The notes beneath the pieces were generated by a model. It did not search any database, was not told the DNA's origin, and was given only the letters and a program-made list of their open reading frames with translations. Made by a program: the position numbers and the translations under genes. A stretch of DNA of 64,000 bases from a virus. Location: positions 1 to 64,000 of the IMG/VR virus record IMGVR_UViG_3300028563_000018, one strand, 5' to 3'. This document shows positions 12,740-51,032 of the stretch, one piece after another. Every line of letters starts with the position of its first letter. Within the stretch, counting starts at the first letter, position 1.

Positions 12740-12794
12740 TCGGGACCTGCCGGCAAAGCGTCTCCCGAGCCGAACCCCACAGGAGTTGCAGATC
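12740..12794 (+). promoter_or_regulatory. leader element A (hairpin loop CCTGCCGGCAAAGCG + AACCCCACAGGAG + GCAGATC)
   Basis: Stem TCGGGA/TCCCGA encloses the conserved loop, immediately upstream of ATG 12796. Confidence 0.8.
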
Positions 12795-12795
12795 A

Positions 12796-13416
12796 ATGAG
12801 TATTTTCAATCGCGACCGCGATCAAGAGGAAGAGCAAGTCGAAGCTGGTGACGGGAGTGAGGGCATCGCAGCCCCGGTAGTCGCCGACCCGCCGGTCGAG
12901 GCCGTCGAAGCTGTCGAAGAGCAGCAGGACGAAATCGACGGTTGGGAAGACCCCGAGCCTGCGCACGCGAGCACGGAGTCGCCCGAGGAACCGCCGACCG
13001 AGGAAGAGCAGCTCGACGACGACGAGCGTCGCCCTCGCGGGTGGCTCGAGTCCGACATCGAGAAGCTGATCAAGGCGATCCAGTCGGGTGAGGTGACGAT
13101 CGATCCGGTCGGCGCTCCGCTCACGCCGCACCTTCTGTCCAAGACCCTCACTAACGTCGAGGGGCTCGCGAAGGCGCCGTCCACTGGTGCCGTCTCGGCG
13201 GTGCTCGACCGGTGGGTCAACGTCGGTGCGGCCGAGACGAGTTCCAGGCCGTACGCGTTTGTCGACTTCACCCCCCAGGCGAAGGAGCACGGTATCGCCG
13301 GTCTCAAGCAGGCAATCAAGGACCAGCGCAAGGCCGAGAAGCAGGCCCAGAAGGACGCCGACACCGAGGCAGCGAAGCAGGCCGCGATCGAGGCTGCGGC
13401 TGACGCGGCGGAGTAG
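12796..13416 (+). CDS. acidic hypothetical protein, possibly nucleic-acid binding
   Basis: RBS AGGAG; E/D/P-rich N-terminus, compact central domain, K/A-rich C-terminal helix. Confidence 0.7.
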   Translation: MSIFNRDRDQEEEQVEAGDGSEGIAAPVVADPPVEAVEAVEEQQDEIDGWEDPEPAHASTESPEEPPTEEEQLDDDERRPRGWLESDIEKLIKAIQSGEVTIDPVGAPLTPHLLSKTLTNVEGLAKAPSTGAVSAVLDRWVNVGAAETSSRPYAFVDFTPQAKEHGIAGLKQAIKDQRKAEKQAQKDADTEAAKQAAIEAAADAAE

Positions 13417-13517
13417 TTACCAGGTGGAGCGGCCGGTGTACTACGCTTGGTGCCGTCTCCCTTACCTTGTCGGGTTGGTAGACACGTGGAGGGCCTGGAG
13501 CGATCCAGGTCCTTCAC
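13417..13517 (+). ncRNA. candidate 3'-UTR-derived antisense sRNA-2 ending in a GNRA-capped hairpin
   Basis: TCTCCCT-TA-CCTTGTCGGGTTGGTA (13456-13480) is the reverse complement of the CCAACCCGACA box + AGGGAGA; 14-bp stem 13486-13517 with GCGA loop. Confidence 0.6.
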
Positions 13518-13536
13518 CGCGTCAGGTTGCGATCTC

Positions 13537-13866
13537 GTGACGGACCTGATCGTCCAGGAAGACCCCGAGCCCGACCCCCTTCGCGGCGGCAAGCATTACG
13601 AGCACACGCCGGAGCTACCCCCGAGGCCGTTCCTCTACTCGATCGATCAGGTCGCCGCCCTTCTGTACGTCGACCTGGGCTACCTGAAGAGCAGGTACCT
13701 CCACTACGAGGGACGCACGCTCGGGCCGCACTACCCCGACTACATCTTGGTTCGCAACATCGCACCGAAGGGCAACGCTCCCGACTGGCGATGCGCTGAG
13801 CAGGAGTTCGCGCGCTGGTTGAAGCACAAGGGGTTTCGACTGCACCAGCGCGGGTGGGTGTCCTAA
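13537..13866 (+). CDS. putative HTH DNA-binding protein
   Basis: 'LYSIDQVAALLYVD' resembles an excisionase/MerR-like HTH start. Confidence 0.5.
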   Translation: MTDLIVQEDPEPDPLRGGKHYEHTPELPPRPFLYSIDQVAALLYVDLGYLKSRYLHYEGRTLGPHYPDYILVRNIAPKGNAPDWRCAEQEFARWLKHKGFRLHQRGWVS

Positions 13867-13962
13867 AACAACACGAGAACAACGGATACTGAGCACAAGA
13901 CACTCGAATTTGCTCACGCCACAAGCAGAAATAAAGATTTTCTAGGAATGACGGTTACCAGC

Positions 13963-13991
13963 TTGAAGCGTGATCTATCACGCAATAGCTT
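13963..13991 (+). promoter_or_regulatory. sigma-A-like promoter with a palindrome in the spacer
   Basis: TTGAAG-N17-TAGCTT; GCGTGAT-CT-ATCACGC at 13968-13983. Confidence 0.6.
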
Positions 13992-14006
13992 GCTTTCTTA
14001 CCAGGG

Positions 14007-14076
14007 GGCGGCGCGTCCTGCCGGCAAAGCGAACGCGCGCCACCTGCCTTTGCCGAACCCACAGGAGTACCTTCAG
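14007..14076 (+). promoter_or_regulatory. leader element B
   Basis: GC stem around CCTGCCGGCAAAGCGAAC (14017-14034), then AACCCACAGGAG (14056-14067), upstream of ATG 14077. Confidence 0.8.
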
Positions 14077-14898
14077 ATGGCCCTTGTTCCCAGCGCGCCC
14101 GGACTCGAGAACTACACCGGGATGGACGACCTCAGTCCTGAAGACCTGACGATGCCTCGGTTGGCAATCGGGTCGAACGAGAACGCAGGTGTGTTCATCG
14201 ACAGCCAGACCTCGCAGAAGTTCAGCGAGGTCGACATCATCATCCTCGGGATCATCAAGCAGCGGATCTTGTGGCCCGCCACGATGGGCGACCAGAAGTC
14301 GAACCCGCTGTGCCGGTCGTACGACTTCGACCGCGGTCATCCCGACGAGGACAAGTTCCCCTGGAAGCAGAGCGGCTACGACAAGGCCGTCATCCTCGGA
14401 ACCGAAGACAAGACGATCCCCTGCGACGCGTGTCCGTTGAAGGACTGGGGTTCGCACCCGGCGCGCGAGAAGGTGCCGTGGTGCAACGAGCAGATCGTGC
14501 TCGCGATCCTGTTGGCGCCGAGTTACTCCCCGGCGATCCTGACAGTGCAGGGATCGGGGCTCAAGCCGACCAGGGCGTACCTGACGAGCTTCACGCGTGA
14601 TCGGCTCCCGCCCTTCAACTGCGTCACGCACGTCGAATTGGACGTGAACACGCGCGGCACCGTCACCTACAGCGTGCCGAGGTTCAGCAAGCCCGGCGAG
14701 CAGACCGACGTCGACAAGTACGGCGAGTACGTCACGACGTACGAGGGCATGCGCAGGTTCGTGCAGACGCCCAGGTCTCGTGATGACGAGAATACCGACG
14801 CGACTCCCGCTACGTCTACGGCGAAGAGCACGCCCGCACCAGCTCCCGTAGCTGCGAGTGATGTCGATGCCGACGACGACGGGCCGCTTCCCTTTTAG
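14077..14898 (+). CDS. single-stranded DNA-binding-like protein
   Basis: Flexible P/A/T linker and acidic 'DDDGPLPF' SSB-Ct-like tail; replication-gene context. Confidence 0.6.
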   Translation: MALVPSAPGLENYTGMDDLSPEDLTMPRLAIGSNENAGVFIDSQTSQKFSEVDIIILGIIKQRILWPATMGDQKSNPLCRSYDFDRGHPDEDKFPWKQSGYDKAVILGTEDKTIPCDACPLKDWGSHPAREKVPWCNEQIVLAILLAPSYSPAILTVQGSGLKPTRAYLTSFTRDRLPPFNCVTHVELDVNTRGTVTYSVPRFSKPGEQTDVDKYGEYVTTYEGMRRFVQTPRSRDDENTDATPATSTAKSTPAPAPVAASDVDADDDGPLPF

Positions 14899-14904
14899 TT
14901 CTTC

Positions 14905-15002
14905 GCGCGCGTCCGGCTCCCCCAATACGGACGTGCGTTGGGTCGGCCCCATCGCTCGCGAGGACCCCCAACCTCGTTGAGCATCCCCGCTGGGGCCGAC
15001 CC
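14905..15002 (+). ncRNA. 6C-like structured RNA with C-rich loops
   Basis: Hairpin 14905-14938 with loop GCTCCCCCAATA; hairpin 14940-15002 (GGGTCGGCCCCA/TGGGGCCGACCC) with apical loop ACCCCCAA. Confidence 0.55.
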
Positions 15003-15049
15003 GCCGTTCTATCTCCGCGTGGAAACCCAACCCGATATCGAGGTACGGC

Positions 15050-15988
15050 ATGTGGTTCCTGAAGGCAGTTGCTAGAGGTAATGCCGGCAAGACCCTGGAC
15101 GGCAACGGCTGTCTCGCCGTGATCATCGTCATCGCTTTGGTTTGGGTCATCTCTGCCTTCTGGTGGGGATGGCTCTTCATGGTCATCACTGGTGCGTGCG
15201 GATGGCACATCCCGTACTTCCCGACAGGCGTTGCGTTCGGGTTCCTTCTCTCAATGGTGCTCGGCTGATGGTCTGGGCCATGTTCGGCTACGGCAGCGAG
15301 GACGAGTACAACGCCGCCCGCGCTGAACGCGAGAAGCAGATGGACGAGGCCCAGGCGCAGAGCGACCTGACCAACCATCAAGTCGTGCGCGTGATGAACG
15401 AGCTCGACGAAGAGCACTGCACGGTGTTCTACAAGGTGCTCGCCCAGGTCCGTGATGCTGGGAACGTGAGTTCCCTGGAAGCAGTCACCGCGGCCTTCTG
15501 GATCGGCGTGCTCCGTGGGCGCCTCAATGCCGTGTTCGGCGTGTGCATGTCGTGCGGCAAGAAGCACGACGACGAGTTCGCACGTCTCATCGAAAACCAA
15601 CCCGACAAGGACACTCCCTCATGAAGAAGCGCACCCTGCGCGTATGGCTCGCGAGCCATCCGTGGCACAAGGACGACGTGCGTGGCGTGGCGATCTTCAC
15701 CGTTTTGGCGGGGGCGCTCTACTGCTACGACCGTCCGTTGGACGACGACAATGCCGAGTGCGTGCACGTGTACGCGCCGGGTGCGTGGGTCAGCGCGGAG
15801 TGGTTGGGATGAAAATCAAGAGCCGAGTCGAGGCACGCAATCAGATCCTCGACGCCGCAAACCGAGCGCGTCGAGAACCGAGCCATCCGTGGCTGACGAT
15901 GAAGCATCTTCAGCGCGCGGTATTTCGGTGTCGCCAGCGCGGGCTCGTCAGCGCTCAGACACTCGTCGACGCGGGATTCAGATCATGA
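15050..15988 (+). other. small genes: membrane protein 15050-15268; hypotheticals 15268-15624, 15621-15812, 15809-15988
   Basis: Coupled ORFs; CCAACCCGA boxes at 15027 and 15597. Confidence 0.55.
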
Positions 15989-17439
15989 CCCTCACGACGG
16001 CGACCCGCGGGTCGCTCAAGAAGATCCGTGATGATCTCGCGCTGTACCCCCACCAGATCGACGGGATCCGAACCCTCGCGCGCCGCAGCAGCTTCCTTCT
16101 CGCCGACGAGATGGGGCTCGGCAAGAGCATCCAGGCGCTCACGGTCGCAGCGATCGACTTCGAGAAGAACCCGAACGCTCGCGTGCTCATTGTGGCGCCC
16201 GCCTCCCTGAAGTGGAACTGGCAAGCCGAGATCTTGGCCTTCACCTACTTCAACTGCCTGATCCTGGACGGCACGCGCAAGCAACGCGACATGCAGTTGC
16301 TCCAGTTCTCCAGTAACGAGTTCGACATCCTGATCGTCAACTACGAACAAGTCGTCGCCCATCTCGACGACATCAACGCTCTGCACTTCAACATCGTGAT
16401 CGCCGATGAAGCGCACCTGATCAAGTCACCGAAAGCGAAGCGCACGAAGGCTCTCCAGGGCATCGAGGCTGACCGGTTCTTCCTGCTGACCGGGTCGCCG
16501 TTGCTCAACCAGGCCAACGATCTCTGGTCGCTGATCTACCGGATCGACCCGAATCTGTTCCCCAAGTATTACTCGTTCATCCAGAGATTTTGCGTCATGG
16601 GTGGCTACCAGGGCAAGCAGATCGTCGGTGTGAAGCACCACCGAGAGCTGTCCGAGAAGCTCAACTCCGTCATGCTGCGGCGCGAGAAGAAGGACGTGCT
16701 CGATCTGCCCGACAAGATCCGCATCCCGATCGTAGTGGACCTTCATCCCGAGCAGGCGAAGCTCTACAAGCAGGCCGTCGAGGAACTCCAGATCACGTTG
16801 CCGGATCGCCCGGATGCGATGGAACTTGAGAACGCGCTCACGAAGATGCTGCGCCTCAAGATGATTTGCGGGACGACGGCCTGCATTCCCGGCTACCCCG
16901 ACCATTCTTCCAAACTCGATATTGCTGTCGAGAGAGCGTGCGAAGTGATTGCGGGGGGCGAGCCAGTCGTAATCTTCACGCAGTTCCGCGAGGTACAGCG
17001 GTGCATGGTCGAGCGGCTCAAGAAGTTGGGTCACGAATCGTTCGTACTCAACGGCGATACGCCGATGAAGGATCGCGTGCCGACCGTGCAGCGATGGGAG
17101 GCGACAGCGACGCGCCAGGGCCTCACCCCGAAGAACCCAAGCGCACTTGTCGCCATGCTGCAAGTCGCCGGCGTCGGGCTCAACATGACCGCTGCCTCGA
17201 CTGCGATCTTCATCGACAAGCTCTGGGTGCCCGCGCTGAACATCCAGGCCGAAGATCGTCTGCACCGCATCGGGCAGAAGAGCACGGTGACCATCATCGA
17301 GGTCATCGCTCGTAAGACCGTCGAGCAGCGCGTGCTCCAGATCTTGCAACGCAAATCGAAGTTGTTCGGCACGTTGATCGGAGACAACGACAAGTTCAAG
17401 CGCGCTCTCGTGGAGAGCCTGATGGATGAGGACTTCTGA
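15985..17439 (+). CDS. SNF2-family helicase
   Basis: 'LADEMGLGKS', 'DEAH', 'LTGSP', 'GVGLNMT', 'QAEDRLHRIGQ'. Confidence 0.92.
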   Translation: MTLTTATRGSLKKIRDDLALYPHQIDGIRTLARRSSFLLADEMGLGKSIQALTVAAIDFEKNPNARVLIVAPASLKWNWQAEILAFTYFNCLILDGTRKQRDMQLLQFSSNEFDILIVNYEQVVAHLDDINALHFNIVIADEAHLIKSPKAKRTKALQGIEADRFFLLTGSPLLNQANDLWSLIYRIDPNLFPKYYSFIQRFCVMGGYQGKQIVGVKHHRELSEKLNSVMLRREKKDVLDLPDKIRIPIVVDLHPEQAKLYKQAVEELQITLPDRPDAMELENALTKMLRLKMICGTTACIPGYPDHSSKLDIAVERACEVIAGGEPVVIFTQFREVQRCMVERLKKLGHESFVLNGDTPMKDRVPTVQRWEATATRQGLTPKNPSALVAMLQVAGVGLNMTAASTAIFIDKLWVPALNIQAEDRLHRIGQKSTVTIIEVIARKTVEQRVLQILQRKSKLFGTLIGDNDKFKRALVESLMDEDF

Positions 17440-17648: not shown

Positions 17649-17751
17649 ATGAGATCGATGACCCACTGAGCCCCGCCAAGGGAATCATCCTCGGCGTGGT
17701 ACTCGGGAGCGTGTTCTGGCTGGTCGTCGCGCTCGTCGCCTGGAGGGCACT

Positions 17752-22341: not shown

Positions 22342-22561
22342 CATTACGCGAGCCAGCCGAGGTCACAGTGCAGCACATCGCCTTTGGTTACACGTTGCGC
22401 TGGCGCAGGCTCAACAAAACTTATGATACTCCGTATTGGACTCCGTATTGGAAGTGGCTCCCCTCCAAGCGTTGGGCAAATTGGAGTGCACGACGTATCG
22501 CAGCGCGCCTCGATCGTCAGATCGATCGTCACTACAACGCGTTCTGGAAGGTTCGTGCATC

Positions 22562-42035: not shown

Positions 42036-42091
42036 GATCTGCCTCGCTGTGGGTTTGTGCGGCCCGTTCGCTTTGCCGGCAGTGGGCCTGC
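42036..42091 (-). promoter_or_regulatory. leader element C
   Basis: GGCCC/GGGCC stem around ACTGCCGGCAAAGCGAAC, then AACCCACAGCGAGGCAGATC-ATG. Confidence 0.8.
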
Positions 42092-42102
42092 GGTTTAACT
42101 TC

Positions 42103-42591
42103 TTATGATGAGATTTCTGTCTCGAACCAACACTGCGTGACACTTGCAAAGACGAACGCACCATTGATGCGATTGTCTTGGTATCGCTGGCCTTGAACTC
42201 CCCAGCGAAGGACTCGCTCAGTCACTCCGAGAATCGTCTCATTCAGACCGCCCAAAGCTAGTTTCAATGCGGAGTCCCTGTATAGGGTCGCCCGCAATGA
42301 CTTTACGAATTTGCTCGAAATAGCAGCACCTTCGTCGCGCTTTGCGTGCTTCATCAAAGTCTGGATATAGACGTAGTACCTGCCGCGCGGCTCACCCGCG
42401 CCGATCTCCCAGTCGAGAGGCACCCAGTTGTCGGTGAACACGCCAATGGCGCCGTTCGCGGAAGTATCTGCGAGCGCGTTCTTCTCGATCGTTTTCACAT
42501 CAGCGAGAGTCCAGAGCCCTGTGGGCGTCGGAGTCTTCACACCGACGAGGGTGTCGACGATGTTGGCCGGAAAGGCAGCGTCAGAGGGCAT
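42103..42591 (-). CDS. tail terminator-like protein
   Basis: Size and position just upstream of the tail tube. Confidence 0.55.
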   Translation of the reverse strand: MPSDAAFPANIVDTLVGVKTPTPTGLWTLADVKTIEKNALADTSANGAIGVFTDNWVPLDWEIGAGEPRGRYYVYIQTLMKHAKRDEGAAISSKFVKSLRATLYRDSALKLALGGLNETILGVTERVLRWGVQGQRYQDNRINGAFVFASVTQCWFETEISS

Positions 42592-43114
42592 GAGCGTTAC
42601 CTCGCGCCATCTCTGTCGTGAACCACTGCATCAGGTCTTCCAGGATGAGGGCTGCGTCGGTCTCGTCGACTGCGACAACGGGGCGCGGAACGGTCGCTCC
42701 GAAGTTGGCCTGCTTCGGCTTGCCGCGCTGTGCCGTGTTGAGTTTCTCGAATAGTTCTCCGCCGGGACTGGACGGCCACACGAGGATGGCGCCATCGCCA
42801 TCAGACATCGTGACGCCAGTGCTGGATGTCATGAACGACTCCAACTCGCCCGTACGCTTGTTGATCGGGTTCGCGCCGGGAAAGCCCGCGCGATCGCGGA
42901 TGGCGACAGTGCTGAATCGCAGAGGCGCCCACTTGCCTGACGCCTGGTCCCCCTCGGCGTCGAAGCGTGCTTGTGCTCGAGCTTGCAGCGTCTTCGTTGG
43001 GCCGACGCGCAGGAACTCTTGTAGTGTCACGGGTTGGAAGATCGACCGCATACGGTCAAGGACCGCGACGACATCCTCCTTCTCGACCTCGATATTGATC
43101 AGTGCTTCGGCCAT
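42581..43114 (-). CDS. virion morphogenesis/tail completion protein
   Basis: 'RFDAEGD...WAPL...RTGEL...VPRPVV' resembles Mu gpG-like neck proteins. Confidence 0.65.
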   Translation of the reverse strand: MAEALINIEVEKEDVVAVLDRMRSIFQPVTLQEFLRVGPTKTLQARAQARFDAEGDQASGKWAPLRFSTVAIRDRAGFPGANPINKRTGELESFMTSSTGVTMSDGDGAILVWPSSPGGELFEKLNTAQRGKPKQANFGATVPRPVVAVDETDAALILEDLMQWFTTEMARGNAHAL

Positions 43115-43115
43115 A

Positions 43116-44504
43116 TCACGCAGCCGTGGTGACGTTCGTCCAGCCGGTCGTGCCGTTGGTGTTTACATAGAGGCGCGTCGAGGACGACGATCCGTCCAGC
43201 CGGATGTAGACCGAACCCTTCGCCGCAGAGAACGAAGGCACGCCGGTCCCCTGAGAAATGCTTGGCCCAGCGGCACCCCCGAGAGAGATCTTGGCGGTCG
43301 CATCGGGCGTTCCGTAACCCTCACCAATGATGAGGTTGTGCATGACGAAAACGTCGTTGTAGATCCCGAGAGCGCCGGTGGCGTACTCTTGGATCACGGC
43401 GGTGTTCATGTGTAACTCGGCACCCTTGTCCCAGACGGTGTTCGTGCCAGCATTGCTGACCGGAGTCGAGACGGCGACAAAGTTGTTGTTCCGGATAAGT
43501 GTTCCGTCGGCGGTCGAAAGAACCGAGACTCCCGTCGCAGTGCCACCCATCGCAGAGGCATTGAAGGTGTTATTCGAGATGATGTCGTAGTCGCCAGCAG
43601 TCTTTACGCCGACGAAGCAACCTTCGAACCGGCAGCCGATCACCGTTGACTGTGAGTTGCCAGCGTTCTGGTTGTCGACCCCGATGGCCGCGCCCTGGAT
43701 GATCGTCCCAAGCACCTTCAGGGTGTCGCCGATCGTGTTGCGGATCCCTGTCGTGCTCGCCGCGTATGCAGTCGTGTCGTTGAAGTGGGCGTCGATGTAT
43801 CCGCCGATGACCTTCAACCCATTGGTGTCGTTGTTGTCGATGCCGATGAGGCAGTTGGCAGCGAGGAAGTTGCGCACTTCGGGGTACTGCGACAGCGGAT
43901 TGCCAGTGCCAGTACCGTCCGAGCGGAGGCCGTAGCCGGCATTGAAGTCGACCGCTGCGCAGTCCTCGACAATCCAGCCATTCGCACGCTTGATGAGGAT
44001 GGCGCCGGTGGCAGTCCCAGCCGTGTCGTGGAAACAGAGACCTCGAAGGACGGGTCCCTGGAAGATCGTTGACGCAGCGGCCGAGTTGAAGGTGAAACCG
44101 ACAACACTCGCTGGCACCTGAATCACGACAGCACCGAGCCCGACCGCAGCCCAGCCGCCGTTACCGGCGTCTTCGCCGATCAGGGCGATGTTCGGCGTCG
44201 AACTGGTGAGCCCCGACGTGATCTTGTAACCACCGACAGGGAAGACAACCGTGCCGCCCACACTGGGACATGCGTTGAGGGCGTTCTGGATCGCGGTGGT
44301 GTCGTTGGTGTTGCCATCACCCTTAGCACCAAACGCCATCACATTGAGGCGAATCCCGAGCTGACGAGGGTTCGCCTTGAGGTCGGTTCCAGTTGTCGCC
44401 ATCGAAGTGTTCGACACATCGACCATAGGAATGAGGTCGTTCGTCGGGTCGATGCCCTGAGCAACGGCGCTGAGTCCACTCGTTCGGATCGGTATTGCCG
44501 TCAT
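43116..44504 (-). CDS. pectate-lyase-like beta-helix spike (putative depolymerase)
   Basis: 'NVMAFGAKGDGNTNDTTAIQNAL...VVFPVGGYKIT' followed by parallel beta-helix repeats. Confidence 0.8.
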   Translation of the reverse strand: MTAIPIRTSGLSAVAQGIDPTNDLIPMVDVSNTSMATTGTDLKANPRQLGIRLNVMAFGAKGDGNTNDTTAIQNALNACPSVGGTVVFPVGGYKITSGLTSSTPNIALIGEDAGNGGWAAVGLGAVVIQVPASVVGFTFNSAAASTIFQGPVLRGLCFHDTAGTATGAILIKRANGWIVEDCAAVDFNAGYGLRSDGTGTGNPLSQYPEVRNFLAANCLIGIDNNDTNGLKVIGGYIDAHFNDTTAYAASTTGIRNTIGDTLKVLGTIIQGAAIGVDNQNAGNSQSTVIGCRFEGCFVGVKTAGDYDIISNNTFNASAMGGTATGVSVLSTADGTLIRNNNFVAVSTPVSNAGTNTVWDKGAELHMNTAVIQEYATGALGIYNDVFVMHNLIIGEGYGTPDATAKISLGGAAGPSISQGTGVPSFSAAKGSVYIRLDGSSSSTRLYVNTNGTTGWTNVTTAA

Positions 44505-45349
44505 AATGTGCTCTCTGTCTCGAGTGGCGGCACAGAAACGGGAGCACCAGGACGCCACACCGTTTTGCTGATCCGCGGCGGGAACTGCGGGCGCATGAAT
44601 GCCTGCTCAAAAGCGTCCACTGCGCTGTAGGTGTCGTGGTTGGTGATGCTCGGCGCGTTCGCTTGGAAGCTCGTCGGCTCGATCGTCAGGCCGGGGAGCG
44701 CGGTGCCACCGTTCAGGATGGAGTTGAGGTCGGTGATGGCTCCGTCGATGAGCTTCTGGCCGTAGTCGTGCACCGAGTTGTCCTCGTGCGCGATGGCGAG
44801 GCTCTGAATCAGACGACCGGTGGCGAGCTTGCTATTGATCGTCTTGAGCTTGAGCGTCACCCAAGCGGGAGCCGAGTCGAGGGCGAGTGGCAACACGTAC
44901 CGCTGACCCAGCATTCCGTTCATCTCGTCAGCAGTGCCGTTGATGTAGTCGTAGTGGTTGATGTCGGGCGAGAGCGTCATGTCTCCAAGGAGAAGGTCAC
45001 TGATTTCGCAGTAGCCGAAGTTCGGCGCGTTGACCCGGAAGATCAACTCGCCGTATTGCTCGTTGTTGTGGTCGTCCGTGAACTTCAGGACGTACGAGCC
45101 AGGCTCTAAGCCGTCGAGCTCGTCGCCCGGAGTCGTCGACCAACTCACCACGAGATTCGGCGACTGCACAACGCTGTCGACGAGCGGCGGGATCGTAAAG
45201 CCCGTCGTCTTTGTGAACAGGACCGGACCGCCAAAGGCGAAGCAGTCGAGTTGAATCACGTGCCCGGTCAGGTCAAGCAGGTACCCAGAGTTGTCCCATT
45301 GGACCTCAAGATCAAAGTACTTGCCTTTACTGTAAACGGCGCGATTCAT
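44501..45349 (-). CDS. head-to-tail adaptor with an extra N-terminal domain
   Basis: C-terminal 'YCEISDL...MNGMLGQRYVLPL' resembles gp36/gp6-type adaptors. Confidence 0.55.
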   Translation of the reverse strand: MNRAVYSKGKYFDLEVQWDNSGYLLDLTGHVIQLDCFAFGGPVLFTKTTGFTIPPLVDSVVQSPNLVVSWSTTPGDELDGLEPGSYVLKFTDDHNNEQYGELIFRVNAPNFGYCEISDLLLGDMTLSPDINHYDYINGTADEMNGMLGQRYVLPLALDSAPAWVTLKLKTINSKLATGRLIQSLAIAHEDNSVHDYGQKLIDGAITDLNSILNGGTALPGLTIEPTSFQANAPSITNHDTYSAVDAFEQAFMRPQFPPRISKTVWRPGAPVSVPPLETESTL

Positions 45350-45357
45350 GGTCGTCT

Positions 45358-47103
45358 TTAGATCGGCGTGGACGGCACGAAGGTCGGACCACGTAAGCGT
45401 ATATGCGTCTTTTCCTGAACGACCATCGATACGGGTAGCTCTTTACGAACGTATTCAATCTTTGTTGCCCCGACACGAACAAGGCACGCCACTCCAAACG
45501 CATTGAGATAGGCAGTGGACTTCAAAGTCACATCACCTACGGTCAGCGAAGCTGACGCGCCTGTTGCGCTGATGACGCGCTTTCCCACGAAGGGCACTCC
45601 TACGTGTGCCGAGAATGGATTACCCGGAACATGAAGTGTGTAGTGAAGCGTGAACCCAGGAGACCCAACACCAACCGTGCATGAGACCCCCGTCGTATCG
45701 ATGATGCGCGTTCCCATACGAAGGAAAGACGCCCCCACCAACACGCCACAGGCGATTCCTGTGACCGAACGAGATACCGGACCGGGGTGAAGCGCGAGAA
45801 AACCAGCGGCAGCGACACACGTCACGCCAGTTGGCAACAGATGATTCGTCGAAGTCGCCGAGACGGTGCCGAAAATCGCAGACCCCGCGACGCCACCGGT
45901 CGTGATGTGCGCTGTCGACTTGACGCCAGGAGCGCCAATAGAACACGTCACAGCCTTGCCGGTGGGAAGAATGCGAGTGATCTTCTTGGCAACGGAGGAT
46001 CCAACCGTAACCGTGCAACTCACGCCAGACAACGAAAGTGTCTGCGTCGGCGGGATGAGGAAGGTCGCAAGCGCAGAGGCGATCGTGGCGTGACCCGTCG
46101 AATTGGCATGAACGGTGTCGCTCATCGAGATCGTCCCGATGGTCCGTAGATCAAGGAACGCGACGTTGCTCGGATCCGCAGCGGCGATTGCGGCCAGAGC
46201 GGTGTTGTAGGGACCGATGTCGGGATGACCCGAGGCTGACGAGATGTCGTAGGGACCAAGCAACAGGAACGATGGATTTTGAGAACACATCGACTTCACA
46301 TTTGCGATGATCTGCGTGATGTTCGCCTGATACGTCGCCGTCGACACGCCGAGTACGCAGTCGTTGATCCCGAGAAAAATGATGCAGAGCGCCGGGTTCA
46401 CGCAGAGGGTCGCCGAGAGCGGATCTGTCAGTCCAGCGACGCTGAACATATCGGCCACACCACCCGACACCTGACCAACGCGGCCATGATTGAAGACCCG
46501 AATACCTTTGCCCTCATCGCTGTCGAAAATTTGGGCACCACAGATGAAAGGAGTCTTACCGGAGGACGGGGTGACAACGGAGGTGTGGGTCCCATGCGAG
46601 TAGAGAGCGGAGGTATAGCTACCTTGATAGTCGAGACCTCCTGTCGAGGCGGGAGTGATCGTGTCAGCGGATCCCCCGTCAGTGACTACCGACAATGTGC
46701 CGAGTCCACTGATCCCGCGTTGGTGTTGGAATTTGATCGAAGTGCCAGTCCAGTGCAGTGTGACCGTTTCGTTCGCAGCGATAGTCTCAATCTCGCCATT
46801 AAAGTTTCGTGAGTCGGTAGTGCCGCTATCGCCGCTCGACCAGGTCCAATACGCCGATCCAGCAGGACTGTTGTTGCTTAACTCGGAGCCGTTGACATAC
46901 CCGAGGCCACCCACACCGGCCTGATAGTGGGCCTGAAGGTTGCGCGCCAGCTTGGCCGAGTATCGAGAGTCGACGATCGGAAACGCCGCTCCAGGATTGT
47001 TCGATCCAAACCCCTGCGAGACGCTGTCCCCGAAGACAATGATGTTGCAAGGCGAAGTGCCAGCGGCACTAAGCGCCGATCGAACTCGGTCCAGTGCGGC
47101 CAT
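45358..47103 (-). CDS. SGNH/GDSL esterase fused to Cys-containing repeat stalk
   Basis: 'FGDSVSQG', 'LGINDC', 'DTVHANSTGH' catalytic blocks; C-terminal TG-x-x-C repeats. Confidence 0.8.
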   Translation of the reverse strand: MAALDRVRSALSAAGTSPCNIIVFGDSVSQGFGSNNPGAAFPIVDSRYSAKLARNLQAHYQAGVGGLGYVNGSELSNNSPAGSAYWTWSSGDSGTTDSRNFNGEIETIAANETVTLHWTGTSIKFQHQRGISGLGTLSVVTDGGSADTITPASTGGLDYQGSYTSALYSHGTHTSVVTPSSGKTPFICGAQIFDSDEGKGIRVFNHGRVGQVSGGVADMFSVAGLTDPLSATLCVNPALCIIFLGINDCVLGVSTATYQANITQIIANVKSMCSQNPSFLLLGPYDISSASGHPDIGPYNTALAAIAAADPSNVAFLDLRTIGTISMSDTVHANSTGHATIASALATFLIPPTQTLSLSGVSCTVTVGSSVAKKITRILPTGKAVTCSIGAPGVKSTAHITTGGVAGSAIFGTVSATSTNHLLPTGVTCVAAAGFLALHPGPVSRSVTGIACGVLVGASFLRMGTRIIDTTGVSCTVGVGSPGFTLHYTLHVPGNPFSAHVGVPFVGKRVISATGASASLTVGDVTLKSTAYLNAFGVACLVRVGATKIEYVRKELPVSMVVQEKTHIRLRGPTFVPSTPI

Positions 47104-47104
47104 C

Positions 47105-48955
47105 TCAGGCGTCCCGCAACGACCAGGAGTTCTGCTTCGTCACATAGAAGGTGCTCAAGCGAACGTGCCCTTTCTCGTGCAGGGCAATTCGCACGCCTGG
47201 AGGCGTGACTGTGTGCATCGCCACGGCGTGACCCGGTGTCATCGAAACGCCGACACCAGTCAGGAACAGCGTCCTTGAGGCGTAGTCGGCGAAGGACACC
47301 CCAAAATGGACGGAACACACCGCGCCAGATGGCAACACCGTCACGTGTGTATGAAGATTCGGAACTCCGACGTGGATCACACAAGACGCACCGGTTGCCA
47401 TGATTCCGTTCGAGCTCACCAGCGGCGAACCAGCGGCAGCGGCACTCGCCAATCCAGAGGGCAAGATCACGTAACGACTATGAAGAGTGCACGAGCCAGC
47501 ACTCGCGGACGACGCAACACCCGAAGGATGAATCTTTATCGTGCTAAGGAGCGTCACGGAGCCAGGGGTGGCAGCAACCGCCAGACTAGGGACCGCGATC
47601 GAGCCAGCTCGCGAAATAACGGTGTTGCCGGCCGTCACAGAAACGGCCTTCCCTGCGGGATGCATCGCGTAGCTCGGCGTCACGCTCGTTGATCCGGCGG
47701 TACAGGAAATCGACTTCCCTGTGGTGCTGATGTGCGCAATCGACTTCACACCCGGCGCGCCTGGCGTAACAGAGCAAACGAACCCCGTCGAAGAAATCGA
47801 TACGGCGCCGGGATGCAGCACGACAGATCCACATGTCACCGAGCACGCGAGTCCAGACGGAAGGACGTGTGCGATCGACTTGACGGCAGGGGTCCCGGTG
47901 GCAACCGAACACGAGAACCCAGTCGTCGAGACAGTAACGGCGCCTGCGTGCATTGAGATGGATCCCGCGGTGACGCTGCATGAAGCGCCCGTCACGGCAA
48001 CAGTGTTACGTCCCTTGACGGTCGGCGAACCCACATTGACCGAGCACGAGAACCCAGTCAGCGACCTCGAAACGGACCCCGGATGCAAGATCGGCGCACC
48101 ACACGCGACCGAACAGGAGAAACCAGTAGCCGAGATATATGAAATACCTTTCACAGTTGCGGATCCCGCCGTGACCGTGATGGCTTTTCCGGTTGTCGAA
48201 AGAGTGTTCTTGCTCTTTACGCTGACTGATCCTGGAGTCACCGTGCAAGCGACGCCAGTCGGGCTGATCGTTTGGAGCGGAGGTGCCGCCTTCCAGAGGG
48301 CGACACAAGCCGCCCACGTACCCGAGACGCTGAGCGTGGCCTGGTAAGTCTGTGCAGTCGCCGAAGAGAGAATGGCAGACCCAGTGATGGCGTTGTTCGA
48401 TGACGCCGTCAGCGCTCCATGCGTGACTTCGGTCCCAGCGCCGAACGGTGAAAACTGTCGCGACGACACGGTGGTCGCACTACCACTGCCAGACAGAAAC
48501 GCTATGCAGCCGATCGCCAGGTCCGCAGATCCGGCAGGAGTACCCGACGACCCAGAGGACGGAGACGTACTCGAAGCAGGCGTTCCTGCGTGAGAAACGT
48601 CAAGCGCCCCGGCGCCAGCGACCTCATAGAACTGCGATTGAACACCAGTCGAGTCGGCGAGCGCGATCGTAAAACTCGTGATGGATGCGGCGTTGGTGGT
48701 TGCCCAAATCGACGCTTCGCGATTGAACGCCGCGGTCGAAGAGACAATGCGCGTCCAAGTGTTGCCGGCGCTGTCGGTGACGCCCGTGACTTCCGGGTTG
48801 CCCGAGAAGTCAAACTTACTCAGCGTTGCGATCGCAAGGATCAGAAGCGCTCCTGCGGCAGTTGCCGTCAGTCCAGTCTTCTGATGTGAGGTTGCATTGG
48901 TCGCATCGTCGTAGGTGACGCCTGCGCCGCTACCATTCGTGATCGTGATTGCCAC
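47105..48955 (-). CDS. Ser/Thr-rich fibre/appendage protein with ~20-aa repeats
   Basis: Repeated 'TGFSCSVxxG' units; same repeat family as the adjacent esterase gene. Confidence 0.65.
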   Translation of the reverse strand: MAITITNGSGAGVTYDDATNATSHQKTGLTATAAGALLILAIATLSKFDFSGNPEVTGVTDSAGNTWTRIVSSTAAFNREASIWATTNAASITSFTIALADSTGVQSQFYEVAGAGALDVSHAGTPASSTSPSSGSSGTPAGSADLAIGCIAFLSGSGSATTVSSRQFSPFGAGTEVTHGALTASSNNAITGSAILSSATAQTYQATLSVSGTWAACVALWKAAPPLQTISPTGVACTVTPGSVSVKSKNTLSTTGKAITVTAGSATVKGISYISATGFSCSVACGAPILHPGSVSRSLTGFSCSVNVGSPTVKGRNTVAVTGASCSVTAGSISMHAGAVTVSTTGFSCSVATGTPAVKSIAHVLPSGLACSVTCGSVVLHPGAVSISSTGFVCSVTPGAPGVKSIAHISTTGKSISCTAGSTSVTPSYAMHPAGKAVSVTAGNTVISRAGSIAVPSLAVAATPGSVTLLSTIKIHPSGVASSASAGSCTLHSRYVILPSGLASAAAAGSPLVSSNGIMATGASCVIHVGVPNLHTHVTVLPSGAVCSVHFGVSFADYASRTLFLTGVGVSMTPGHAVAMHTVTPPGVRIALHEKGHVRLSTFYVTKQNSWSLRDA

Positions 48956-48983
48956 CGTGTTACCTCCCGGCGGATAACCCCGA

Positions 48984-49412
48984 TCAGTTCAGGCTGAAGA
49001 TGCGGTTGTTCCCGTTGTCGAAGGACACTGCGATGTCGCCGCCGTTGGGCGTGACGGCCGTGAAACCATCGATGTAGAGAATCGGCGTCGACCCGGCGTC
49101 GTTCGTCACGAACTTGTAGACGACGAGCGCAGCAACGGTCTTCGATCCGGATACCGAAACGGCCGTGAAGGTCGCGTCAGCCGCGTCGAATGCGATGACG
49201 TGCGAGTTGGTCACGATCGACAATGAACCGAGGGTCTGGTCTGTCGTCGATGCGTACCGAGTGATCGGCGTCATCGACGTCTGAGTGAGGTCAACCGTGT
49301 AGTCGGTGGCGACGTTGATCAGACCGATCTTGATCGTGTCCGAGTCGAGGTCGATGCGCGTTCCGGTCCCAAGGAACGCCTGCTTCGCAACGTCGTACAG
49401 GGCGGATGCCAT
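48984..49412 (-). CDS. virion structural protein
   Basis: 'IDLDSDTIKIGL...FDAADATF...TPNGGDI'; head-gene context. Confidence 0.55.
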   Translation of the reverse strand: MASALYDVAKQAFLGTGTRIDLDSDTIKIGLINVATDYTVDLTQTSMTPITRYASTTDQTLGSLSIVTNSHVIAFDAADATFTAVSVSGSKTVAALVVYKFVTNDAGSTPILYIDGFTAVTPNGGDIAVSFDNGNNRIFSLN

Positions 49413-49413
49413 G

Positions 49414-49716
49414 TCAACTCACTTCCCCGGCGGTGACTTCGGCCACTACGCCATCGGCTTCGATCGCCTGTGCTGCTGGTTGCACAGCGCCGCAGTTCTT
49501 GCAGAAGTTCTCTCCGCCTGACTGCGAACCACAGCTCGCGCAGATCGCGGGTCCACCAAGTGCCGACTGCAACGCCGCGTCGGCCTTGCGATACGCGTCG
49601 TTTACTGCGACACGCTTGGCCTTCCACTCGGTTTCGACGACTGCGTACTCGGCCTCGAACGCGCCGATCGCTTCGGCCGCTGCGTCGTGCTGGGCTTGCA
49701 GTTCTGCGAGTTCCAC
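49414..49716 (-). CDS. coiled-coil + zinc-ribbon protein
   Basis: RBS AAGGAG; 'CASCG...FCKNCG'. Confidence 0.55.
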   Translation of the reverse strand: MELAELQAQHDAAAEAIGAFEAEYAVVETEWKAKRVAVNDAYRKADAALQSALGGPAICASCGSQSGGENFCKNCGAVQPAAQAIEADGVVAEVTAGEVS

Positions 49717-49744
49717 GAGAATTTCTCCTTGGTTGGGATGACCC

Positions 49745-49780
49745 GCCTCCGACCGTGACCGCAAAACCACGGTCGGAGGC
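49745..49780 (-). terminator. hairpin downstream of the major capsid gene
   Basis: GCCTCCGACCGTG/CACGGTCGGAGGC 13-bp perfect stem. Confidence 0.6.
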
Positions 49781-49799
49781 GTCTCTCAGCCCCCCGAGA

Positions 49800-50972
49800 T
49801 CAGGTAGCAAGCACCTCGAGCACATAGGACAGGTCGAGGTGAGGGAACACCGGGAACGCCTTGATGCCGGTGCCTGCGTCGATGCCCCACGGGTCTTGCG
49901 AGGGCGGCGTCTCCCACTCGTAGTACCCGGAGGTCCAGTTGCCCTCGGGGTGTGGCGAGGTGAGCGTCTTGCCCCAACCCATCGCGTCGTCGAGCGCGTC
50001 GACCGACTGCTGCGAAGGCAGGAACAGGATCTTGTTGTCCGGCGAGAAGCGGTGCATGGTCCGCGTCGTCGCACCGTGCGCCCGAGTGAAGAACACCGAG
50101 TCGTACGGCTGAATCGAGATGCCTGTCGCTCGCTGGAACACGGCGAGTGCGGCTTGGATGCCGTCGCCCCAGTCGGGCAGCACGTACCGAGGGTCGATGA
50201 CCCCCGACGACGGACCACCAGCGACCGCCATGCCGGTGAGCGCAGCGAACTTGGAGCTCGTGACGATGTTGCGGATGACCTTCTCGGAAGCGAGAGCACG
50301 AGTGATCTCGACGCCGTAGTTGTCACGCATGAACTGCTTGACGGTGAGAGCGTTGCCGATTGGGTCGGCAGAGGTGCTGTCCCACGGCGTCACCGACGCG
50401 CCAGCCGAAGTCGTGGACAACGGAGCGCCACCGGTCTGCTGACCCGCCGGACGCTTGTAGTCGACGCTCAGGATGACCTTGCCGTCGTTGTAGGCGATCA
50501 CGCCTTCCCACATGGCCTGCATGATCAGCCACTCGAGACGGTTGTCGAGCTTCTTGCGCCGAAGGACCGCGTCACGCGCGTACCGACGATTGAAGTCGTC
50601 GAGGATGCCCGTCGTGATGGTGAGCGGAAGCGCGGACGGAAGCAGACCGTTGAGGTAGATCGCCTCCTGATACTTCGACACGTCGCTCGCCTGGTAGTGG
50701 TCCTTGATCGCCCAGTCGATGAGCGACGCCTGCCCCGTACCGAAGGTGTCTTCCTTCGCTGCGAGTTCGGACTCAGCGTCCTCTGCGCGAGCAGAGGCCA
50801 GACCGTCGGCCGTGTTCTGCACGTACTGGAAGATCACGTCATCGCTGTTGACGCTCTCAAACGGTGCGTACAGGTTGAGCCCGATGTGATCCTCAGGGAA
50901 GGAGCGCTCGCGGATGAGCCCGAGCATCTCTTCCTTGCGAACCAAACGATCCTGTGACGGGAACGTCGCCAT
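49800..50972 (-). CDS. major capsid protein (lambda gpE-like)
   Basis: 390 aa after protease and decoration genes; 'RLEWLIMQAMWEG...VDY', 'QDPWG...AFP'. Confidence 0.85.
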   Translation of the reverse strand: MATFPSQDRLVRKEEMLGLIRERSFPEDHIGLNLYAPFESVNSDDVIFQYVQNTADGLASARAEDAESELAAKEDTFGTGQASLIDWAIKDHYQASDVSKYQEAIYLNGLLPSALPLTITTGILDDFNRRYARDAVLRRKKLDNRLEWLIMQAMWEGVIAYNDGKVILSVDYKRPAGQQTGGAPLSTTSAGASVTPWDSTSADPIGNALTVKQFMRDNYGVEITRALASEKVIRNIVTSSKFAALTGMAVAGGPSSGVIDPRYVLPDWGDGIQAALAVFQRATGISIQPYDSVFFTRAHGATTRTMHRFSPDNKILFLPSQQSVDALDDAMGWGKTLTSPHPEGNWTSGYYEWETPPSQDPWGIDAGTGIKAFPVFPHLDLSYVLEVLAT

Positions 50973-51032
50973 CTTCCGAATCTCCTCGTACCGTGGGTTT
51001 GTGACGGAGTCGCTTTGCCGGCAGGCCCGTCA
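50973..51032 (-). promoter_or_regulatory. leader element D
   Basis: TGACGG/CCGTCA stem around GCCTGCCGGCAAAGCGACT, then AAACCCACGGTACGAGGAG upstream of the capsid ATG. Confidence 0.8.

What the first reader, a model, noticed from the sequence alone, without database searches (positions are those of the whole stretch)
12740..51032. Four dispersed 5'-leader hairpins with different stems but the same loop (elements A-D)
Seen in sequence at 12740-12794 (+), 14007-14076 (+), 42091-42036 (-) and 51032-50973 (-). The loop CTGCCGGCAAAGCG is closed by stems with unrelated sequences (TCGGGA/TCCCGA; GCGCG/CGCGC; GGCCC/GGGCC; TGACGG/CCGTCA). It is always followed by AACCC(C)AC(A/G)G, the SD and an AGAT-containing spacer, in the sense orientation of the gene. 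Pairing conserved without sequence conservation points to an RNA structure. Inference: these are the targets of sRNA-1 and mark the genes that need the highest copy number. An alternative or additional role is as operators for an RNA-binding protein; the TGCCGGCA core is also a palindrome.
Basis: partly seen in the sequence, partly recalled or inferred. Interest (0 to 1): 0.85.

Follow-up and report, generated by a model that had tools for sequence, protein, structure and literature searches.

The report
Phage leader hairpins with anti-leader RNA
An uncultured soil phage puts the same small folded RNA tag in front of its capsid, tail-tube and two early genes, and carries one further copy that, read on the other strand, looks like a small antisense RNA able to pair with those tags.

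Summary
The 14-mer CTGCCGGCAAAGCG occurs exactly four times in the 72,872-bp virus record, always sense and just upstream of a start codon (major capsid, tail tube, an SSB-tailed protein, a winged-helix protein). It is closed by unrelated stems and followed by AACCC(C)AC(A/G)G and the SD. I found a fifth copy, E (58168-58231, one A fewer, 12-bp stem, no start codon). A covariance model finds these five and nothing else. All 6 outer-stem pairs change on both sides (29 of 30 cells paired), and the apical UGC/CGGCA(A)A/GCG is invariant.

On the minus strand E is the strongest terminator-like hairpin plus U-tract in the genome. A promoter-like site lies about 40 nt upstream, which predicts a ~94-nt RNA antisense to loop, box and SD. 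In predicted net pairing the four leaders rank 1-4 of 90 gene starts.

Rivals are a protein operator and a purely cis element. There are no expression data, and no homologue in Rfam, cultured phages or IMG/VR relatives, which lack the leader.

This scan has noted anti-leader RNAs in other phages. It has also read this stretch as five copies in another window.

The parts
12740..12768 (+). Leader A hairpin: stem TCGGGA/TCCCGA, internal loop CC/UC, inner stem UGC/GCG, loop CGGCAAA
   Evidence: 43.5 bits
12773..12798 (+). Leader A box AACCCCACAG, SD AGGAG, GCAGATCA spacer, ATG of gene 12796-13416 (206 aa, acidic N-terminus plus winged-helix-like domain, phrog_15020)
14011..14040 (+). Leader B hairpin (GCGCGU/ACGCGC or the GGCGCG/CGCGCC register)
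   Evidence: 28.6 bits
14048..14055 (+). B-only cis anti-loop CUUUGCCG, a perfect complement of loop CGGCAAAG (14022-14029); possible pseudoknot
   Evidence: 8 nt in B; 3-5 nt in A, C, D, E
14056..14079 (+). Leader B box AACCCACAG, SD AGGAG, ATG of gene 14077-14898 (273 aa, phrog_5686, C-terminus DDDGPLPF like an SSB tail)
42059..42091 (-). Leader C hairpin (GC + bulged A + GGCCC / GGGCC + GC), starting 12 nt after the upstream gene's stop codon
   Evidence: 18.1 bits
42033..42055 (-). Leader C box AACCCACAG, SD GAGG, CAGATC, ATG of tail tube gene 42035-41016 (PF18906)
51002..51032 (-). Leader D hairpin UGACGGG/UCCGUCA (one G-U pair); fills the 77-nt gap between the head decoration gene and the capsid gene
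   Evidence: (43.0 bits)
50970..50999 (-). Leader D box AACCCACGG, SD GAGGAG, ATG of major capsid gene 50972-49800 (PF03864, phrog_29)
58168..58208 (.). Element E hairpin: 12-bp all-Watson-Crick stem GGGCCAGGGGTG/CACCCCTGGCCC, apical CCTGCCGGCA-AGCGAAC (one A fewer)
   Evidence: (23 bits)
58209..58231 (+). E box and tail AACCCACAGCGAGCAGATCCGTAG. Matches leader C in 13 + 6 nt but has no start codon; the next + strand gene (primase-like) starts at 58333
58155..58248 (-). Candidate ~94-nt antisense RNA: 5' hairpin, linker GGGUU, terminator hairpin (= E), tail CCCCUUUUCUUUUUCC
   Evidence: -51.6 kcal/mol, z -3.29; -34.3 kcal/mol, best of 10 terminator-like sites in the genome
58255..58283 (-). 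Promoter-like site TAGTCA-17-TATGAT pointing into E
   Evidence: 9 of 12 matches; 1 of 2 sites in 19 kb, 3.8 expected by chance, so weak on its own

Best explanation
The five elements are one phage-private RNA module.

Shown. Four sense copies (A-D) form the last 55-70 nt of the 5' leaders of the capsid, tail-tube, SSB-tailed and winged-helix genes. Each has a hairpin whose stem can be any sequence. The hairpin displays an invariant top (CC / UGC-CGGCAAA-GCG). It is followed by the single-stranded box AACCCACAG, which abuts the SD.

Inferred. The fifth copy, E, sits in the divergent control region between the small-terminase and primase genes. It works on the minus strand. A promoter-like site is followed about 40 nt later by a 12-bp GC hairpin and a U-tract. 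That would give a ~94-nt RNA whose body (GCUCGCUGUGGGUU) is antisense to the box and SD, and whose hairpin top is antisense to the leader loop. This RNA pairs in trans with the four leaders, covers their ribosome-binding regions and so sets the timing or level of their translation. It most likely represses, in the manner of P1/P7 c4 RNA on ant. Because the partner is one RNA, loop and box must stay constant in every target while the stems are free to drift.

Leader B carries in addition a cis copy of the anti-loop, which would give the SSB-like gene its own fold.
For: Structure: all 6 of 6 outer-stem pairs change on both sides, 29 of 30 cells pair, and 0 of 500 shuffles reach this; the inner helix and loop never vary. 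The stems exceed a null of 333 chance loop words.

Orientation: 4 of 4 are sense, start-adjacent and non-intragenic.

E differs from A-D in just the features a minus-strand terminator needs. It has a 12-bp all-Watson-Crick stem and CCCCUUUUCUUUUUCC after it on the minus strand, and no start codon on the plus strand. It is the strongest of the 10 hairpin + T-tract sites on both strands of the 72.9-kb genome (-34.3 against next -21.0 kcal/mol).

Promoter-like TAGTCA-17-TATGAT lies upstream. The 106-nt minus-strand fold gives two hairpins, z -3.29, matched by 1 of 200 shuffles.

Net cofold energy after paying for unfolding puts the leaders at ranks 1-4 of 90 gene starts (-25.2, -18.7, -15.3, -13.6; mean -3.6, sd 3.9). 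The plus-strand E RNA, used as a control, shows no preference. D's A-to-G change in the box keeps pairing as G-U.

Analogy within the genome: a second start-associated box, CCAACCCGACA (11 matches against 1.5 expected), also has exactly one exact reversed copy, in a 3' UTR. Its early-gene targets rank 1-5 and 11 of 90.

B's cis anti-loop (8 nt) shows that the loop is used as an RNA pairing surface.
Against: No transcript evidence on either strand.

Complementarity follows by construction, because E is a copy of the leader. The ranking therefore shows feasibility and specificity, not function.

The promoter-like site is not significant on its own (2 found in 19 kb, 3.8 expected).

In the predicted fold the anti-loop is mostly buried in the terminator's top, leaving only UGCC free. 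The predicted pairing with C and D runs through the box/SD part, not the loops.

All four targets have AAA where E has AA, so each loop duplex would carry a bulged A. This fits a constraint shared by A-D that is independent of E.

The plus strand upstream of E carries the same ATAAAGAT word that precedes A and B. E may therefore also, or only, be a plus-strand leader of the primase operon.

The terminator could simply insulate the late operon.

The hairpins are not thermodynamically exceptional.

All evidence comes from one genome, and the covariation alignment was fitted to the model.
Confidence: 0.42

Rival explanations
1. Protein operator. The invariant apical module and box are the binding site of a phage or host RNA-binding protein. 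The protein activates or represses translation, or stabilises the mRNA, of the tagged genes. E is a fifth sense site, either the leader of the primase operon or a decoy, and its minus-strand terminator is a separate, coincident function.
For: The architecture (stem, CC/NN internal loop, 3-bp stem, heptaloop) is typical of protein-bound hairpins. A-D are identical to each other in 14 of 14 loop positions yet differ from E by one A. The 8-nt palindrome UGCCGGCA reads the same in both orientations. ATAAAGAT lies upstream of A, B and E on the plus strand. The SDs are mostly unpaired in the folds, so the hairpin stands alone as a handle.
Against: No candidate binder was found. The 89-aa four-Cys protein suggested by another note has no Pfam match at E up to 1, so no Com family match. 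It also has homologues in 12 of 21 loci of relatives that lack the leader. No RNA-binding family was recognised among the 54 products scanned. This reading does not explain E's long stem, its U-tract and its missing start codon, nor B's cis anti-loop.
Confidence: 0.3
2. Cis-only element. The hairpin acts by itself as a 5' stabiliser or processing boundary, and the box as a translation enhancer. Together they raise the yield of capsid, tube and SSB-like proteins from polycistronic or short transcripts, with no dedicated trans factor.
For: C and D lie inside the long late operon, directly before its two most abundant virion proteins. Relatives have only 11-12 nt (Kvothe, GTE7) or similarly short gaps at that place. 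A related box, AACCCGACA, precedes the SD of at least five further early genes without a hairpin.
Against: A passive stabiliser needs no invariant 14-nt loop across five copies whose stems have fully diverged. Loop and box show no more complementarity to three actinobacterial 16S rRNAs than shuffled words do: loop -19.9 to -21.2 against -21.4 +/- 2.0, box -14.7 to -14.9 against -13.2 +/- 1.8 kcal/mol. The stems are too short for RNase III (recalled requirement of about two helical turns).
Confidence: 0.13
3. DNA-level site. TGCCGGCA with its flanks is an operator for a dimeric DNA-binding protein (for example the winged-helix product of gene A). It would act as an orientation-dependent roadblock, like the stoperators of cluster A mycobacteriophages.
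For: The palindrome occurs 8 times against 1.6 expected. Gene A encodes a winged-helix-like protein and carries a copy itself. Stoperators are likewise one-orientation intergenic sites (named in the passages read of PMC3203893; their details recalled).
Against: Duplex DNA binding does not require flanking arms that keep pairing while changing sequence. G-U pairs (inner U-G in 5 of 5; one in D) are meaningful only in RNA of the sense strand. The spacing between loop and box varies from 11 to 24 nt, which is poor for a bipartite DNA site.
Confidence: 0.07

Closest known systems
c4 antisense RNA of phages P1/P7 acting on ant mRNA (passages of the review PMC12197685 read; P4 CI RNA and P22 sar recalled)
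   Same: A phage-encoded small RNA that pairs in trans, through short segments presented by its fold, with sites at and before a ribosome-binding site and blocks translation.
   Different: c4 has one target operon and is processed from the same transcript. Here four dispersed genes, including capsid and tail tube, share the target, and each target presents it on its own covarying hairpin. The candidate RNA is an inverted copy of the leader that doubles as a terminator. Nothing is shown experimentally. The word 'capsid' does not occur in that review's main text.
Start-associated sequences (SAS) and extended SAS of cluster K mycobacteriophages (Pope et al. 2011, PMC3203893; passages read)
   Same: A phage-private, one-orientation motif abutting the SD of a subset of genes, with an extra inverted-repeat element just upstream in part of them. 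Function unknown; a role in translation was suggested.
   Different: ESAS arms are conserved in sequence, their spacer varies, and departures do not support RNA pairing; the authors favour DNA-binding sites. Here the arms are unrelated but compensatory and the loop is invariant. SAS are confined to non-structural genes, whereas two of these leaders serve capsid and tail tube. The consensus differs (GGGATAGGAGCCC against AACCCACAG).
Lambda late promoter PR' - tR' (6S RNA) arrangement (recalled)
   Same: A promoter, a short RNA and a strong intrinsic terminator stand directly ahead of the terminase gene and the late operon.
   Different: No Q-like antiterminator was identified. The short RNA here is antisense to leaders of genes inside and outside the late operon.
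Lambda-type nut sites (boxA + boxB with N protein) and Mu Com-mom (both recalled)
   Same: A hairpin with a conserved loop plus a linear box, in sense orientation, read as RNA by a small phage protein.
   Different: boxB has a 5-nt GNRA-like loop and lies near promoters, not at ribosome-binding sites. Com has a single target. No N-like or Com-like protein was detected here.
T4 gene 32 mRNA leader pseudoknot (recalled)
   Same: Leader B, in front of the SSB-tailed gene, can form a hairpin-loop to downstream pairing (a pseudoknot) just 5' of the ribosome-binding region.
   Different: Resemblance of logic only. No sequence or protein homology was tested or claimed.

Membership tests
Any Rfam 15 family | Match at or above a family's gathering score | tested here: not met
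   0 matches in the 64-kb window at gathering scores. Permissive scans of 58100-58340, 12700-14100 and 50940-51070 gave only sub-threshold hits (best sX2, 17.9 against 40 bits, E 0.097, minus strand).
Cluster K SAS/ESAS | SAS: a 13-bp asymmetric consensus GGGATAGGAGCCC 3-7 bp before the start codon | tested here: not met
   The box here is AACCC(C)AC(A/G)G placed 5' of the SD. Position and one-orientation logic are shared; the sequence is not.
Cluster K SAS/ESAS | ESAS: 17-bp inverted repeats conserved in sequence, variable spacer, departures not compensatory | tested here: not met
   The reverse holds here. The arms are unrelated in sequence, 6 of 6 pairs change on both sides, and the loop is invariant.
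Intrinsic (Rho-independent) terminator, for E on the minus strand | GC-rich hairpin directly followed by a U-tract | tested here: met
   A 12-bp GC stem extended by 5 more pairs, then CCCCUUUUCUUUUUCC. Best of the 10 such sites in the genome. The tool's own terminator scan does not list it, because its loop limit is 3-8 nt.
Trans-acting antisense sRNA (c4-like) | Own promoter and terminator giving a discrete small transcript | tested here: inconclusive
   Terminator: met. The promoter-like site matches 9 of 12 but is at chance frequency. No RNA run is available.
Trans-acting antisense sRNA (c4-like) | Complementarity to targets at or near the ribosome-binding site, specific to those targets | tested here: met
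   The leaders rank 1-4 of 90. The other box class ranks 20-74. The plus-strand control shows no preference. This is partly by construction.
Mu Com-mom | Com-type zinc-finger protein that co-occurs with its target hairpin | tested here: not met
   The 89-aa CxC...CxxC protein (52760-53029, minus strand) has no Pfam family at E up to 1. It belongs to phrog_6679 and has homologues in 12 of 21 loci of leaderless relatives.
Lambda-type nut site | boxB: short stem with a 5-nt GNRA-like loop; boxA; promoter-proximal position (recalled) | tested here: not met
   The apical part is 14-17 nt with an inner 3-bp stem and a 6-7-nt loop. C and D sit at ribosome-binding sites deep inside the late operon.
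N4-type hairpin promoter | 5-7-bp stem with a 3-nt loop, read by a virion RNA polymerase (recalled) | tested here: not met
   The loop is far larger. No RNA polymerase was found among the products scanned.
Translational enhancer pairing with 16S rRNA | Complementarity of loop or box to 16S rRNA beyond chance | tested here: not met
   Three actinobacterial 16S rRNAs give a longest match of 6-7 nt and duplex energies within the shuffled range. The host is unknown, so these are stand-ins.

The most novel reading that the evidence does not exclude
The phage runs a two-class private leader / anti-leader RNA network.

Each class of start-associated box has its own single reversed copy. The AACCCACAG box with hairpin sits on capsid, tube, SSB-like and winged-helix genes. 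The CCAACCCGACA box sits on six early genes.

The anti-leader for the first class is the attenuated transcript of the late-operon promoter itself, in a lambda PR'-tR'-like gate. Before late transcription is released, the short RNA silences capsid, tail and SSB translation. Read-through of the same terminator both starts the late operon and stops making the repressor.

The second anti-leader rides in the 3' UTR of a gene controlled by the first, which would make a cascade.
Probability: 0.15. Interest if true: 0.85.

Novelty: new variant of a known kind. Interest (0 to 1): 0.62.

Why it matters
Structural-gene dosage in tailed phages is usually put down to promoters, RBS strength and mRNA decay. 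A dedicated, self-encoded RNA tag on capsid, tail-tube and SSB-like genes, with a cognate antisense RNA at the head of the late operon, would be a compact post-transcriptional timer. I found no such timer described for actinobacteriophages. Searches returned nothing of the kind, and the 2025 phage-sRNA review never mentions capsid in its main text.

It would also give a testable answer to what start-associated sequences in actinophages are for, a question left open since 2011. It adds one more case to the anti-leader RNAs that this scan has noted in unrelated phages. Practically, the module is a small orthogonal handle of about 60 nt for tuning expression in high-GC Gram-positive hosts.

Tried and rejected
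Homologues by exact word:
- The 14-mer alone gave more than 118 single chance hits in IMG/VR.
- The word plus the box gave 1 IMG/VR hit, L123. It is a single copy with no stem, so chance.
I screened those stretches for closing stems. The two best outsiders are chance: L317 lies between ABC-transporter genes and L258 inside a hydrolase-like ORF.

Homologues by model or BLAST:
- R1 found nothing in 5 whole related virus records or in 25 related loci totalling 121 kb.
- blastn of leaders C and A against 50,697 phage records gave only intragenic hits at E of 2 or more.

Relatives:
- The 19 IMG/VR capsid relatives (43-55% identity) and 118 cultured phages (up to 46%) have no leader. Their capsid gene follows the upstream gene closely.
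- Closer capsid relatives exist (79%, 75% and 66% identity), but their contigs could not be fetched.
- The search for related loci with protein B and with the tail tube found no relative.

Sequencing runs: no RNA holder is listed among the 13 runs. Contigs of four DNA runs laid on 41900-58400 were near-identical and showed no difference in C, D or E, so they gave no population covariation.

16S pairing: rejected.

Com-like zinc finger: not supported.

duplexfold over sliding windows ignores self-structure and gave unrelated windows as good as A and D. I replaced it with net cofold energies.

MAFFT alignments of whole leaders and of upstream regions were poor.

Promoters:
- The sigma-70 scan found none in 11000-16000. 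The promoters that I and a first-stage note read upstream of A and B (TTGTAG-N19-TAGGGT, TTGAAG-N17-TAGCTT) are therefore weak.
- I could not show that the ATAAAGAT / AAAGAYCC-N7-AGCT word is a promoter.
- Upstream regions of the small-terminase gene in relatives show no comparable element.

Not seen: supplementary files of papers.

Full report
Observation. The window is bases 1-64000 of a 72,872-bp IMG/VR virus record. Its GC content is about 60%, it has no tRNA, and it has no Rfam match at gathering scores. The 14-mer CTGCCGGCAAAGCG occurs four times in the whole record at up to 1 mismatch, twice on each strand. The eight further window matches at three mismatches are what chance gives (12 found in all, 9.0 +/- 3.0 expected).

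Each copy lies in the sense orientation 47-59 nt before a start codon. The genes are 12796-13416 (206 aa, phrog_15020), 14077-14898 (273 aa, phrog_5686), 42035-41016 (tail tube, PF18906) and 50972-49800 (major capsid, PF03864).

A fifth copy. A motif script found TGCCGGCA at 58182 and AACCCACAG at 58209 on the plus strand. The sequence there is a full copy of the module with three differences:
- a 12-bp stem, GGGCCAGGGGTG/CACCCCTGGCCC;
- a loop lacking one A (CTGCCGGCAAGCG);
- the box and tail AACCCACAGCGAGCAGATCC, closest to leader C, but with no start codon.

It lies in the 316-bp gap between the small-terminase gene (56635-58017, minus strand) and a primase-like gene (from 58333, plus strand). 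A covariance model built from A and D scores every position of the window. It finds these five (43.5, 43.0, 28.6, 23.0 and 18.1 bits) and then noise (16.2 bits, E 0.19, inside a gene). Nothing appears in the last 8,973 bases.

Structure. The minimum-energy folds agree on one design:
- an outer stem of 5-12 bp;
- a small internal loop (CC or AC on the 5' side, 1-3 nt on the 3' side);
- an invariant inner stem UGC/GCG with a U-G pair;
- a loop CGGCAAA (CGGCAA in E).

On the model-fitted alignment of the five, all 6 outer pairs change on both sides. 29 of 30 cells pair, no shuffle of 500 reaches this, and slid registers give 22-62% pairing. The inner helix never varies.

As an independent null I used 333 distinct chance occurrences of the loop word in unrelated contigs. 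Closing stems of at least 5, 6, 7 and 12 bp occur in 33, 12, 4 and 0 of them. The five copies have 6, 7, 5, 7 and 12 bp.

Two caveats apply. There are only five paralogous copies in one genome, and the alignment was fitted to the model. The hairpins are also no more stable than shuffled sequence (z +0.47 to +1.43). The case for structure therefore rests on compensation, not on energy.

Context. The phage is a siphovirus-type actinophage. Its capsid protein is 43-46% identical to those of Gordonia, Tsukamurella, Rhodococcus and Nocardia phages. The late operon runs on the minus strand: small terminase, large terminase, portal, an 89-aa four-Cys protein, protease, decoration protein, [leader D] capsid ... 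[leader C] tail tube, tape measure. C and D are thus internal to a long operon. D fills the whole 77-nt gap after the decoration gene. Kvothe and GTE7 have 12 and 11 nt at that place, and 19 IMG/VR relatives have similarly short gaps with no hairpin.

A and B follow an integrase on the plus strand. Protein B ends in DDDGPLPF, like the acidic tail of bacterial SSBs (the SSB tail motif is recalled). Its family is otherwise unnamed. Protein A has an acidic N-terminal third and a weakly winged-helix-like domain. "Bulk proteins" therefore fits two genes well, one plausibly and one not.

The box belongs to a wider habit of this genome. AACCCGACA, usually within CCAACCCGACA, lies just 5' of the SD of at least five further early genes. 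The 11-mer occurs 11 times at up to 1 mismatch against 1.5 expected. There is one exact reversed copy at 13468-13478, in the 3' UTR of gene A, where the plus strand reads the complement of box plus SD. Five related virus records carry neither box above chance.

E on the minus strand. Read on the minus strand the region gives TAGTCA-17-TATGAT (58283 to 58255). About 40 nt follow, then the 12-bp GC hairpin, then CCCCUUUUCUUUUUCC. The 106-nt stretch folds into two hairpins at -51.6 kcal/mol, z -3.29.

A genome-wide scan for a T-rich window directly preceded by a hairpin finds 10 sites on both strands. E is by far the strongest (-34.3 against -21.0 kcal/mol for the next, which is intragenic). The features that set E apart from A-D are exactly those of an intrinsic terminator on the minus strand: the long all-Watson-Crick stem, the A-tract before it in plus-strand view, and the missing start codon.

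The predicted ~94-nt RNA is antisense to the leaders in three places:
- Loop: 11 contiguous nt, then a bulged A, then 3-6 more.
- Box and SD: 13 nt for C, 9 for B, 9 with one G-U for D, and 5+4 around a bulge for A.
- The CAGAUC just before the start codon.

These counts are read.

I scored each target by the energy of the joint fold minus the two separate folds. The four leaders rank 1-4 among 90 gene starts (-25.2, -18.7, -15.3 and -13.6 kcal/mol; mean -3.6, sd 3.9; next best -10.3). The plus-strand E RNA shows no preference. The stretch 13440-13520, which holds the reversed early box, prefers the six early-box genes (ranks 1-5 and 11). Since E is a copy of the leader, this shows feasibility and class specificity, not function.

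Against the antisense reading:
- The promoter-like site is no more than chance gives.
- The anti-loop is largely buried in the terminator top.
- The predicted duplexes with C and D use the box/SD part while both hairpins stay folded.
- A-D all have AAA where E has AA.
- The plus strand upstream of E carries ATAAAGAT, an 8-mer present 8 times in the genome that also precedes A and B. E may therefore be read on the plus strand too.

Leader B has a 12-nt insertion that contains CUUUGCCG (14048-14055). This is a perfect complement of the loop's CGGCAAAG; the other four copies have at most 5 nt. It could close a pseudoknot just 5' of the box. That shows the loop being used as an RNA pairing surface. 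By logic only, it recalls the pseudoknot leader of T4 gene 32 (recalled).

Other explanations tested:
- 16S rRNA pairing: not above shuffled words for three actinobacterial 16S sequences.
- Com-like activator: the 89-aa four-Cys protein has no Pfam family at E up to 1, and 12 of 21 loci of leaderless relatives encode a homologue.
- DNA operator: the palindrome is enriched (8 against 1.6 expected). But compensatory arms, G-U pairs and loop-to-box spacing of 11-24 nt speak for RNA.
- RNase III site and N4-type promoter: the dimensions do not fit (recalled criteria).
- Permissive Rfam scans: only sub-threshold hits.

Distribution. No homologue turned up in IMG/VR, metagenome or genome contigs by exact word. 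None turned up in 50,697 phage records by blastn or in related records by the model. The phage itself occurs in 13 listed rhizosphere DNA runs. Four of those, laid on 41900-58400, are near-identical across C, D and E. The decisive comparative test could therefore not be run.

Comparison and novelty. In logic the module is nearest to P1/P7 c4 RNA acting on ant (passages read). In layout it is nearest to the SAS/ESAS of cluster K mycobacteriophages (passages read). It fails the defining features of ESAS, because it has variable compensatory arms and a fixed loop rather than fixed arms and a variable spacer. Full-text searches returned nothing describing a conserved-loop hairpin before capsid and tail genes of actinophages (listings only, apart from the two papers read in passages). 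I file it as a new variant of a known kind: a phage cis leader with a likely cognate antisense RNA. Other notes of this scan describe anti-leader hairpin RNAs in unrelated phages, and the same stretch was read as five copies in another window.

Limits. The evidence comes from one genome with no transcript data. The host is unknown. Promoters are inferred from weak consensus matches. In relatives the small-terminase gene lies within 200-500 nt of the genome end. The physical ends of this phage may therefore lie in or near the E region, which could give E a further, DNA-level role.

Noticed in passing
window 3943-15607 (plus strand copies) and 13456-13480: A second start-associated box, CCAACCCGACA: 11 matches at up to 1 mismatch against 1.5 expected, six of them just 5' of the SD of early genes. 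One exact reversed copy, with an anti-SD, lies in the 3' UTR of gene 12796-13416 and is followed by a 9-bp hairpin. The early genes rank 1-5 and 11 of 90 as predicted pairing partners of that stretch.
   Followed up: partly
I could not show that it is a promoter.
   Followed up: partly
whole genome: CTGCAG (a PstI-type site) is absent (0 against 20.4 expected). GATC is over-represented (697 against 476) and so is GGCGCC (69 against 39). This hints at restriction avoidance and at the phage's own methyltransferases (23047-23760; 71244-71522 on the genome).
   Followed up: no
window 14077-14898: The 273-aa product (phrog_5686, weak Pam3 gp34-like) has Cys motifs (CDAC...WC) and ends in DDDGPLPF, like the acidic tail of bacterial SSBs. 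It may be a non-OB single-strand-binding or annealing protein.
   Followed up: partly
window 58018-58332; loci L388, L390: In related virus records the small-terminase gene starts 180-480 nt from the genome end; one of these records has direct terminal repeats. The physical ends of this phage may therefore lie in the same gap that holds element E, and the record may be a permuted assembly.
   Followed up: partly
window 52760-53029 (-): An 89-aa CxC...CxxC protein (phrog_6679) lies between the portal and protease genes. It has homologues (34-49% identity) in 12 of 21 related loci, and no Pfam family.
   Followed up: partly
window 11596-12462 (+) and 61085-62224 (-): Two tyrosine-integrase-like genes (288 and 379 aa) in one phage. 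The shorter matches only the catalytic half of the integrase profiles.
   Followed up: no
window 403-3618, 6227-9462: A 1071-aa CobT-like protein (phrog_5298) and an RIIA-like / RIIB-like pair in an actinophage early region.
   Followed up: no
window 45908-45936 (-): Best sub-threshold model hit (16.2 bits, E 0.19): CCUGGCGUCAAGUCGAC inside gene 45358-47103, loosely like the leader top. Probably chance.
   Followed up: no
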